Of a DNA stretch of 19,189 nt, positions 3,808 to 5,002 are shown in pieces (position 1 is the first letter of the stretch; the number at the start of each line of letters is the position of its first letter). The notes beneath the pieces are model-generated. The model was not told where the DNA came from. It was given only the letters and a program-made list of their open reading frames with translations, and ran no database searches. This stretch comes from a virus (Duplodnaviria > Heunggongvirae > Uroviricota > Caudoviricetes), in IMG/VR virus record IMGVR_UViG_2872180393_000006, positions 1-19,189 of that record; one strand, written 5' to 3'. A program made the position numbers and the translations under genes.

Positions 3808-5002
3808 ATGACCGAATCCAGCGATTACGAATCCGTCCAGGTCTTTATCGGCGTTGATGTCGGTAAAGATACGCATCACGCTGTTGCCATTAATCGTTCA
3901 GGTAAACGCCTGTTCGATAAAGCATTACCCAACGACGAAAACAAACTCAGGTCGCTAATATCTGACCTGAAACAACATGGTCAGATACTGCTGGTTGTTG
4001 ATCAGCCAGCTACCATCGGTGCGTTACCTGTCGCCGTTGCCCGCTCAGAAGGAGTCCTTGTCGGATACCTCCCTGGACTGGCCATGCGCCGCATAGCCGA
4101 CTTACACGCCGGTGAAGCTAAAACTGATGCTCGTGACGCTGCCATCATTGCCGAAGCTGCCCGTACCCTGCCTCACGCGCTACGCACGCTGAAACTGGCT
4201 GACGAGCAAATCGCCGAACTCTCCATGCTCTGCGGTCGATGATGATCTTGCCGCACAGACAACGCAGGCCAGCAACCGTATCCGCGGCCTTCTGACCCAG
4301 ATACATCCGGCACTGGAGCGCGTTCTCGGTCCGAGACTTGAGCACCCGGCGGTACTCGATCTTCTCCAGCGATATCCCTCACCAGAAAAACTCGCTTCGC
4401 TGGGTGAGAAGAAGCTGGCAGCCCAGCTCTGCAAACTTGCGCCTCGTCTGGGTAAACGCCTTGCAGCAGACATAGCTCAGGCACTGGCCGAACAAACCGT
4501 CGTCGTTCCCGGCACGAATGCCGCTGCCGTAGTACTGCCACGTCTGGCACTCCAGCTCATCACGCTGCGTAAGCAAAGAGACGAGGTGGCGCTTGAGGTA
4601 GAACAGCGAGTTCTTGCTCACCCTCTTTACCCGGTCCTGACCAGTATGCCCGGAGTCGGTGTCAGGACCGCAGCCAGACTCCTCACCGAGGTCGCCTGCC
4701 GCGCCTTCGCCTCTGCCGCACATCTCGCTGCTTATGCTGGCCTTGCGCCGGTAACTCGGCGATCCGGCTCGTCAATACGCGGTGAGCATCCCTCGCGACG
4801 GGGTAATAAAGCTCTCAAACGGGCGTTGTTCCTGTCGGCCTTCGCCGCGCTCAGGGATCCGCTCTCCAGGGCTTACTACACCCGCAAAATGAGTCAGGGA
4901 AAACGACACAATCAGGCGCTTATCGCCCTGGCGAGACGACGCTGCGACGTTCTGTTCGCCATGATGCGCGACGGGACTTTTTATACCCCGCAGGGGTCAT
5001 AA
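3808..5002 (+). CDS. IS110-family DEDD transposase, reading frame interrupted (ORFs 3808..4242 and 4586..5002; second frame open from 4193)
   Basis: N-terminal [15 protein letters not shown]...AKTDARDA (DEDD/RuvC-like) and C-terminal [12 protein letters not shown]...[14 protein letters not shown]...[11 protein letters not shown] domains are typical of IS110 transposases. Frame 1 ends at TGA 4240..4242, and the protein continues in the +1 frame. Confidence 0.8.

What the first reader, a model, noticed from the sequence alone, without database searches (positions are those of the whole stretch)
4193..4242. Both IS110-family copies carry the same frame break in the transposase gene
The transposase reads in frame 1 to a TGA at 4240..4242 and continues in the +1 frame, which is open from 4193. 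The inverted copy has the identical arrangement. A +1 shift is not the usual programmed -1 slippage of IS elements, so this looks like a 1-bp deletion fixed before the element duplicated. That implies mobilisation in trans or segmental duplication, unless the gene has an unrecognised recoding site. A shared sequencing error is another possibility.
Basis: seen in the sequence. Interest (0 to 1): 0.4.

Follow-up and report, generated by a model that had tools for sequence, protein, structure and literature searches.

The report
Shared 2-bp deletion in two ISEc20 copies
Two inverted copies of the known insertion sequence ISEc20 in a Shigella boydii-type chromosome carry the same recent 2-bp deletion that breaks their recombinase gene. 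It was most likely copied from one to the other by gene conversion, so this is ordinary gene decay, not programmed recoding.

Summary
Both copies (A 3578-5032 +, B 9251-10706 -) read 144 codons to a TGA (4240-4242 / 10041-10043) and continue in the +1 frame.

The element is ISEc20/ISSfl4 (IS110 family), normally 1458 bp with one 398-aa gene. The lesion is a 2-bp (CT) deletion, GGCTTCGAT to GGTCGAT, between 4235 and 4236. It is not a 1-bp deletion.

No other copy examined has it:
- none of about 1,590 places in 5,426 E. coli genomes reached 99% identity to the deleted junction;
- the same held for 359 places in plasmids;
- all 44 copies from species-representative genomes and metagenomes keep the two bases.

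The truncated protein is on record on one chromosome only (CP026846.1).

Sister chromosomes carry ISEc20 at exactly the same two sites with the CT present. In CP119446.1, which is collinear with this region over 20.6 kb, both copies are 100% identical to the reference. The deletion therefore arose after both insertions.

This rules out recoding, segmental duplication and "defective before it duplicated". The best explanation is gene conversion between the two neighbouring inverted copies. Rivals are an assembly artefact, or excision followed by re-insertion in trans.

This is ordinary and of low interest.

The parts
3578..5032 (+). ISEc20/ISSfl4 (IS110 family) copy A, 1455 bp. Boundaries are those of the sequence shared with copy B. 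The outer C tracts (CCCC at 3578-3581, CACCCCC at 5026-5032) may be target-derived.
   Evidence: 99.8% identical to annotated ISEc20. Differs from the 1458-bp reference only by the CT deletion and one C in a C run. Inserted in a prophage tail-fibre gene; the empty site is seen in relatives.
3578..3807 (+). 5' non-coding left end of copy A. In IS110-family elements this is where the bridge RNA is encoded. It carries the only A/B difference, a C run at 3643-3646 (4 C versus 5 C).
   Evidence: RNA fold of the reference left end gives z = -2.1. No Rfam family matched. The bridge-RNA role is inferred from knowledge of the family and the NCBIfam name 'RNA-guided transposase'; it was not tested.
3808..4242 (+). 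Truncated 5' ORF of copy A: 144 aa (DEDD/RuvC-like domain, cut short) plus the TGA stop.
4235..4236 (+). Deletion junction in copy A. The two bases CT of the reference (GGC TTC, Gly144-Phe145) are missing between these positions.
   Evidence: Alignment to two intact ISEc20 copies and to the orthologous copy in CP119446.1.
4193..5002 (+). +1 frame of copy A, open from 4193. It is homologous to the transposase from 4236 onward (residues 145-398 of the intact protein, including the Transposase_20 domain). The first in-frame start codon is only at 4586.
9251..10706 (-). ISEc20 copy B, 1456 bp, inverted relative to A. Inserted between a phage lysis gene fragment and a DedA-family gene.
   Evidence: Empty site seen in relatives. 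Orthologous CT-bearing copies at this site: full-length with a 398-aa gene in CP119446.1, JARKNR010000001.1 and PSSR01000001.1; 3'-truncated (272-aa call) in CP026877.1.
10041..10475 (-). Truncated 5' ORF of copy B (144 aa plus stop), identical to that of A.
10047..10048 (-). Deletion junction in copy B, with the same missing CT.
9281..10090 (-). +1 frame continuation of copy B (C-terminal 254 residues of the transposase).
   Evidence: Identity with copy A; ORF list.

Best explanation
Both elements are copies of the known insertion sequence ISEc20/ISSfl4 (IS110 family, RNA-guided DEDD/serine recombinase). Its single 398-aa gene has been broken by a 2-bp (CT) deletion in codons 144-145. This is simple, recent pseudogenisation. 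Nothing else in either copy differs from the consensus element, and no recoding is involved.

Both copies were already at their present sites, with intact genes, in the recent ancestor shared with other Shigella boydii-type chromosomes. The deletion then arose once, in one copy, in the lineage of CP026846.1. It was transferred to the other copy by non-reciprocal homologous recombination (gene conversion) between the two inverted 1.46-kb repeats, which lie 4.2 kb apart.

Shown: the identity of the element, the nature and position of the lesion, its absence from every other copy examined, and the orthologous CT-bearing copies at both sites. Inferred: that gene conversion was the copying step.
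For: 1. Element identity. Copy A is 99.8% identical over its full length to annotated 'IS110-like element ISEc20 family transposase' elements. The reference is 1458 bp with one 398-aa ORF. The DEDD_Tnp_IS110 domain (residues 14-168) spans the break.

2. The lesion. Reference GGCTTCGAT reads GGTCGAT in both window copies. Otherwise only one C-run base differs. The NCBIfam profile is split exactly at 128|129.

3. Not conserved.
- A 70-nt junction query found 1,593 places in 5,426 E. coli genomes. None reached 99% identity, and every listed hit spans 72 nt, that is, it keeps the two bases.
- In plasmids there were 359 places, again none at 99% or above.
- Pattern scans allowing a 0-3 nt spacer found 9 genome and 35 metagenome copies, all with a 2-nt spacer: CT in every case except one synonymous TT in Erwinia.
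- The exact 144-aa product is on record on a single contig, CP026846.1, at the two window positions.

4. Separate insertions. The flanks of A are contiguous in genomes that lack the IS, and so are the flanks of B.

5. Orthologous copies that keep the CT.
- Site A carries a CT-bearing copy with a 398-aa gene in CP026836.1, CP026877.1, CP119446.1, JARKNR010000001.1, CP027027.1 and UYIS01000021.1.
- Site B, with an identical 80-nt flank, carries a CT-bearing copy in CP119446.1, JARKNR010000001.1, PSSR01000001.1 and CP026877.1; the last of these is 3'-truncated.
- CP119446.1 is collinear with the window genome over 20.6 kb, including the IS600 copy that lies between A and B. Differences are a few SNPs, homopolymer indels and one substitution patch. 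Both of its ISEc20 copies are 100% identical to the reference.

6. Not a systematic sequencing error. Other assemblies of the same accession batch keep CT. So do the two ISEc20 copies on plasmid CP026844.1 (S. boydii NCTC 9733, adjacent accession), each with an intact 398-aa ORF.
Against: Gene conversion is inferred by parsimony and is not seen directly. The two copies and the consensus are otherwise identical, so no flanking markers define a conversion tract. No genome with the deletion in only one of the two copies was found.

The rest of CP026846.1 could not be searched, so the number and state of any other ISEc20 copies in that chromosome is unknown.

ISEc20 is site-specific, so occupation of the same site in two genomes is not absolute proof of common descent.

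The source assembly has six 1-nt homopolymer differences from CP119446.1 in 20.6 kb (five G/C runs shorter in the window genome, one T run longer), so its base-level accuracy is imperfect.
Confidence: 0.72

Rival explanations
1. Assembly or polishing artefact. The CT deletion is absent from the real DNA, or present in only one copy and propagated to the other by cross-mapping of reads during consensus polishing.
For: Relative to the near-identical CP119446.1, the source assembly shows six 1-nt homopolymer differences in 20.6 kb, five of them G/C runs one base shorter in the window genome. The only A/B difference is such a C-run indel. The same C-run shortening appears in a plasmid copy from the same accession batch.
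Against: The deletion is 2 bp in a non-homopolymer context (GGCTTCG). It is identical in two copies that are anchored by different unique flanks. It is absent from four other ISEc20 copies in assemblies of the same batch and from the two plasmid CP026844.1 copies, so it is not a systematic context error. Cross-mapping among four or more copies would favour the majority CT allele.
Confidence: 0.08
2. Trans-mobilisation and replacement. One copy acquired the deletion. The intact copy at the other site excised. The defective element was then inserted into the re-emptied, RNA-specified target by recombinase and bridge RNA supplied by intact copies elsewhere, for example on the virulence plasmid.
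For: ISEc20 sits in similar C-rich target tracts at many sites, so repeated use of one site is conceivable. Intact 398-aa ISEc20 genes exist on plasmid CP026844.1, which is probably from the same strain. In IS110-family elements the enzyme and guide RNA are diffusible (family knowledge).
Against: This needs at least two extra events (precise excision, then re-insertion at the same site in the same orientation) where gene conversion needs one. The near-identical relative CP119446.1 has both sites occupied in the same arrangement. There is no direct evidence of ISEc20 activity in this genome.
Confidence: 0.08
3. The element was already defective before it multiplied, and the second copy arose from it by trans-mobilisation into a new site or by segmental duplication.
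For: The two copies share the lesion and are otherwise identical.
Against: All four flanks differ, and the empty sites are contiguous in relatives, so this is not a segmental duplication. Orthologous CT-bearing copies occupy both sites in sister genomes. For this scenario to hold, the sister copies would all need to have been repaired.
Confidence: 0.03
4. Two independent, identical CT deletions at a mutational hotspot.
For: None specific.
Against: There is no tandem repeat or homopolymer at GGCTTCG to promote slippage (sequence). No other copy examined showed the deletion, across roughly 1,590 E. coli places, 359 plasmid places and 44 genome and metagenome copies.
Confidence: 0.02
5. Programmed +1 recoding (ribosomal frameshift or transcriptional slippage) restores a full-length recombinase.
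For: A 48-nt overlap of the two frames exists (4193-4242), ending in tandem TGA TGA.
Against: The arrangement is unique to this one genome. Every other copy examined, including orthologues at the same sites and a diverged Erwinia copy, has a single continuous frame. The overlap has no A/T run for transcriptional slippage and no prfB-like CUU-UGA or Shine-Dalgarno-stimulated shift site (sequence).
Confidence: 0.01

Closest known systems
ISEc20 / ISSfl4 (IS110 family; E. coli and Shigella)
   Same: 99.8% nucleotide identity over the full length. The translated fragments are identical to the intact protein on either side of the break. The non-coding left end is the same (about 230 nt), as is the C-rich insertion context. 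ISEc20 and ISSfl4 are listed among the IS of S. sonnei and S. flexneri in PMC7373316.
   Different: The two window copies lack CT at reference nucleotides 660-661, which splits the 398-aa gene into a 144-aa ORF and a +1-frame remainder.
IS621 and other IS110-family bridge-RNA recombinases (own knowledge: Durrant et al. 2024; Hiraizumi et al. 2024)
   Same: The same two-domain recombinase (DEDD/RuvC-like N-terminal domain plus a Tnp C-terminal domain). The intact protein matches the NCBIfam equivalog 'IS110 family RNA-guided transposase' at 239 bits against a 140-bit cut-off. The non-coding region lies upstream of the gene, and no terminal inverted repeats are evident at the sequenced ends.
   Different: No bridge RNA was demonstrated here, and no Rfam family matched. 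ISEc20 is a different member with a different, C-tract target.
Programmed frameshifting in IS elements (IS1, IS3 family: -1 slippage at A6G-type motifs)
   Same: Only the superficial appearance of two overlapping frames.
   Different: The direction is +1, there is no slippery motif, and the arrangement is not conserved in any relative. The IS600 copies in the same window show the genuine, conserved orfA/orfB arrangement.
Concerted evolution (gene conversion) of repeated sequences in enterobacterial chromosomes, such as tufA/tufB, rrn operons and IS copies (own knowledge)
   Same: Two near-identical repeats in one replicon share a private mutation that is absent from their orthologues.
   Different: Here the homogenised change is a loss-of-function lesion in a mobile element. 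The conversion tract cannot be delimited.

Membership tests
IS110 family / ISEc20 | N-terminal DEDD (RuvC-like) transposase domain, PF01548 | tested here: met
   Window fragment 1: E = 1.8e-40, profile positions 1-130 of 155. Intact reference: 1-155 of 155 at residues 14-168.
IS110 family / ISEc20 | C-terminal Transposase_20 domain, PF02371 | tested here: met
   Window +1-frame fragment: E = 2.9e-22.
IS110 family / ISEc20 | Whole protein reaches the NCBIfam equivalog NF033542 cut-off (140 bits) as one polypeptide | tested here: not met
   The intact reference scores 239 bits. The window gene is split into 80.9 bits (profile 1-128) and 148 bits (profile 129-342) in two frames. The DNA is a member of the family, but the gene is a pseudogene.
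IS110 family / ISEc20 | Near-identity at the nucleotide level to the named element over its whole length | tested here: met
   99.6-99.8% over 1455 of 1458 nt to many annotated ISEc20 copies. Only 3 gap positions and no substitutions relative to L001.
IS110 family / ISEc20 | Simple insertion at a specific target, with the empty site recoverable in relatives | tested here: met
   Empty sites were found for A, B and an rtcB-family insertion. Exact junction bookkeeping is uncertain by 1-2 or more nt within the C tracts.
IS110 family / ISEc20 | Bridge (guide) RNA encoded in the non-coding end | not testable with these tools
   A 230-nt left end is present and moderately structured (z = -2.1). No Rfam model matched. 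No covariation analysis or expression data.
Programmed ribosomal frameshift / recoding site | Two-frame arrangement conserved among homologous elements | tested here: not met
   No other copy examined has it. The exact truncated product is on one contig only.
Programmed ribosomal frameshift / recoding site | Shift-prone motif in the overlap (slippery heptamer, homopolymer run, or CUU-UGA type +1 site with a stimulator) | tested here: not met
   By inspection of 4193-4242 (AACTGGCTGACGAGCAAATCGCCGAACTCTCCATGCTCTGCGGTCGATGA) there is no such motif.
Segmental duplication | The copies share flanking sequence beyond the element | tested here: not met
   Identity stops at the element ends on both sides.

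The most novel reading that the evidence does not exclude
The defective element displaced an intact copy by excision and re-insertion at the same RNA-specified target, using recombinase and bridge RNA from intact plasmid-borne ISEc20 copies. That would be a natural case of a non-autonomous IS110-family element being mobilised in trans.
Probability: 0.07. Interest if true: 0.4.

Novelty: already known. Interest (0 to 1): 0.1.

Why it matters
It matters little beyond annotation. Both genes should be annotated as ISEc20 transposase pseudogenes (frameshifted by a 2-bp deletion), not as separate short ORFs or as a recoded gene.

The locus is a tidy natural example of a loss-of-function lesion apparently homogenised between two nearby IS copies. 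It is also a reminder that a shared mutation in two IS copies does not prove that the mutation preceded transposition.

If the minority reading (trans-mobilisation) were true, it would bear on whether IS110-family bridge-RNA recombinases act in trans on defective copies in nature.

Tried and rejected
- Rfam search of the whole window and a permissive search of the left end for a bridge-RNA family. Nothing relevant was found: only isrK and C4 elsewhere, plus a chance snoRNA hit.
- Plasmid accessions next to the chromosome were tried to find the same strain's plasmids. CP026845, CP026847 and CP026848 are not in the collection. CP026844.1 was found later. Its link to the window chromosome rests only on accession adjacency.
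- Literature searches for the accessions and for strain NCTC 9733 did not tie CP026846.1 to a strain name. Papers that mention ISEc20 or ISSfl4 say nothing about a frameshift.
- I tried to derive an exact target, core and boundary model for ISEc20 from three occupied/empty pairs and about 30 further insertion flanks. Only 'C-rich tract' is secure. C-run lengths do not add up between orthologous empty and occupied sites.
- The large protein-homology, structure-prediction and representative-library searches were not run, because the DNA-level evidence already answers the question.
- The rest of chromosome CP026846.1 could not be reached with the tools, so its other ISEc20 copies were not inventoried.

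Full report
**Observation**

The window holds two inverted copies of one element. Copy A is at 3578-5032 (+) and copy B at 9251-10706 (-). They are 100% identical, except that A has CCCC and B has CCCCC at 3643-3646.

In A, an ATG at 3808 opens a 144-codon ORF that ends at TGA 4240-4242. The +1 frame is open from 4193 to 5002. B has the mirror arrangement, with its ORF at 10041-10475 on the minus strand.

Pfam finds DEDD_Tnp_IS110 in the first piece, cut at profile position 130 of 155, and Transposase_20 in the second. The NCBIfam model 'IS110 family RNA-guided transposase' is matched at positions 1-128 by the first piece and 129-342 by the second. The break lies inside a formerly continuous gene, at 4235/4236.

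**What the element is and what the lesion is**

The element is ISEc20 (named ISSfl4 in Shigella flexneri records). Megablast finds it in 1,463 of 5,426 complete E. coli genomes, at up to 99.8% identity. It is annotated there as 'IS110-like element ISEc20 family transposase', with a 1458-bp element and one 398-aa ORF.

I aligned both window copies with two intact copies. The only frame-relevant difference is that reference ...CTCTGCGGCTTCGATGAT... reads ...CTCTGCGGTCGATGAT... in the window. Two bases (CT) are missing, in codons Gly144-Phe145. A 2-bp deletion is what puts the continuation in the +1 frame.

Apart from this deletion and the C-run base in A, both copies are identical to reference copy L001. 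Restoring CT would give the exact 398-aa protein. In the intact protein the DEDD domain (residues 14-168) spans the break. The downstream frame has no start codon before 4586. The gene is therefore dead as a single polypeptide.

**Is the two-frame arrangement conserved?**

It is not.
- A 70-nt query centred on the deleted junction hit 1,593 places in E. coli genomes. None was at 99% identity or above, and every listed hit spans 72 nt, so it has the two extra bases.
- In PLSDB plasmids there were 359 places, 120 of the records from Shigella, again none at 99% or above.
- An exact-pattern scan allowing 0-3 bases at the junction found 9 copies in the species-representative genomes and 35 in metagenome contigs. 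All have a 2-base spacer. It is CT everywhere except a synonymous TT (GGT TTC) in Erwinia typographi.
- The exact 144-aa product is on record on one contig only, CP026846.1, at two places that are the two window copies.
- The overlap 4193-4242 has no homopolymer run or known +1 shift motif.

**Are the two copies separate insertions?**

Yes. Identity stops at the element ends and all four flanks differ.
- Joining the two flanks of A recovers a contiguous tail-fibre/baseplate-wedge junction in EIEC-like E. coli and in several Shigella-type chromosomes that lack the IS.
- Joining the flanks of B recovers a contiguous lysis-gene/DedA junction.

This excludes segmental duplication.

**When did the deletion arise?**

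This is the decisive result. I looked up window-encoded proteins that flank the insertions to retrieve orthologous loci.
- Site A carries an ISEc20 copy with the CT and a 398-aa gene in CP026836.1 (S. boydii according to PMC12817139), CP026877.1, CP119446.1, JARKNR010000001.1, CP027027.1 and UYIS01000021.1.
- Site B has an identical 80-nt left flank and junction. It carries a CT-bearing ISEc20 in CP119446.1, JARKNR010000001.1, PSSR01000001.1 and CP026877.1. The CP026877.1 copy is 3'-truncated after nucleotide 1022.
- CP119446.1 is collinear with the window genome over 20.6 kb, and the IS600 copy between A and B sits at the same junctions. Apart from a substitution patch in the tail-fibre tip region, it differs by only a handful of SNPs and 1-nt homopolymer indels. 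Both of its ISEc20 copies are 100% identical to the 1458-bp reference.

The common ancestor therefore already had both copies in place and intact. The CT deletion is private to the CP026846.1 lineage and postdates both insertions. This contradicts 'fixed before the element duplicated'.

**How did one lesion come to be in both copies?**

One mutation followed by gene conversion between two identical inverted repeats 4.2 kb apart is the single-event explanation. It is a well-known process in enterobacterial chromosomes (own knowledge).

It cannot be shown directly. No other markers distinguish the copies, so no conversion tract is visible, and no intermediate genome with only one copy deleted was found.

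The alternatives are these:
- Artefact. The source assembly has six 1-nt homopolymer differences from CP119446.1 in 20.6 kb, five of them G/C runs one base shorter in the window genome, so it is not error-free. Against this, a 2-bp non-homopolymer deletion is identical in two copies anchored by unique flanks. It is absent from four other ISEc20 copies in assemblies of the same accession batch. It is also absent from both copies on plasmid CP026844.1 (S. boydii NCTC 9733), each of which has an intact 398-aa ORF. It does not look like a systematic or random consensus error.
- Excision of one intact copy, then re-insertion of the defective one at the same specific target using enzyme supplied in trans. 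This is possible in principle, because intact genes are available on the plasmid if it belongs to the same strain. That link rests only on the adjacent accession number. The scenario needs more events than gene conversion.
- Parallel identical deletions. There is no hotspot context, and the deletion is seen nowhere else.

**Comparison with what is known**

The element is a member of ISEc20/ISSfl4 by near-identity and domain content. It belongs to the IS110 family, whose members use a bridge RNA encoded in the non-coding end (own knowledge; the NCBIfam name agrees).

The 230-nt left end is present in both copies, but its RNA role was not tested. No Rfam model matched, and the fold gave z = -2.1.

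The frame break has nothing in common with the conserved -1 frameshift of IS3-family elements. A genuine example of that, IS600, is present three times in this same window.

**Verdict**

It is wrong on the size of the deletion and on its timing, and the proposed routes (trans-mobilisation or segmental duplication) are not supported.

This is a known IS with an ordinary, recent, lineage-private pseudogenising deletion that is present in both neighbouring copies, most likely through gene conversion. Interest is low.

Noticed in passing
window 7832-9096 (-), 11541-12806 (+), 16730-17993 (-): Three copies of IS600 (IS3 family; 99.8% identical to annotated IS600, with the usual orfA/orfB arrangement). 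They join unrelated prophage fragments: the baseplate module to a 154-bp lysis-gene remnant, and DedA to ydaT. The prophage region is therefore heavily rearranged. The 4.2-kb spacing of the two ISEc20 copies is secondary to IS600-associated deletion; the spacing is about 10 kb in JARKNR010000001.1 (L071).
   Followed up: partly
window 3643-3646, 9256, 7243, 1313, 11864; also L074 position 18703 (outside the window): Relative to the near-identical CP119446.1, the source chromosome has five G/C homopolymer runs one base shorter and one T run one base longer in 20.6 kb. One of these is the only difference between ISEc20 copies A and B. Another coincides with znuA being called as two pieces (114 + 206 aa versus 304 aa). 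These may be consensus errors of the assembly, not biology.
   Followed up: partly
window 3571-3581 and 5026-5038 (site A); 9245-9257 and 10700-10713 (site B); L005, L006, L016-L023, L069, L075, L077: ISEc20 sits in C-rich tracts: a left flank ending in C4-7, and a right flank of CACCCCC, CCCCCCC or similar, at about 30 sites.

Orthologous empty sites do not add up exactly. Site A reads TATACCTCCC in EIEC-like E. coli, but C6, C10 or C11 in Shigella-type chromosomes. Site B reads CCACCCCCC or CTACCCCCC. An rtcB-family site reads CCCCACCCCCC in one allele and CCCCGCCC in another.

I could not tell whether this reflects hypervariable C runs, assembly error, excision footprints or sequence exchange at insertion.
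   Followed up: partly
L024, L029, L041, L065 (right flank CAC-GTTAC...); L015 around 8050-8070 (GGGGCCCCGTTAC...): At several independent ISEc20 insertions the sequence just outside the right end resembles the element's own left end (GTTAC...). This hints that the natural target mimics the donor junction, or that remnants or tandem junctions occur.
   Followed up: no
window 15341-15417 and 15442-15529 (+): Rfam gathering-level hits to isrK (64.8 bits) and C4 antisense RNA (79 bits). They lie at the 5' part of the ORF 15290-16135 (Phage_ASH/pRha-type antirepressor), a P1/P7-like immunity arrangement in the Rac-like prophage remnant.
   Followed up: no
window 378-645: A dense patch of about 35 substitutions relative to CP119446.1, in an otherwise near-identical 20 kb. 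It lies in the DUF4376 / tail-fibre tip region and suggests a recombinational swap of a host-range cassette.
   Followed up: no
window 5784-7021 (-): The baseplate-J-like gene is split into 251/260-aa and 150-aa ORFs here and in most relatives, but it is a single 413-aa gene in CP026836.1 (L068 8758-9999). This is another sign that the prophage is decaying.
   Followed up: no
L078 16401-17856 and L082 (CP026844.1 200989-202446): The S. boydii NCTC 9733 virulence-type plasmid carries two ISEc20/ISSfl4 copies with intact 398-aa genes. They differ from the chromosomal copies at reference nucleotides 469 and 706. They were therefore not the donors or recipients of any exchange across the deletion site.
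   Followed up: yes
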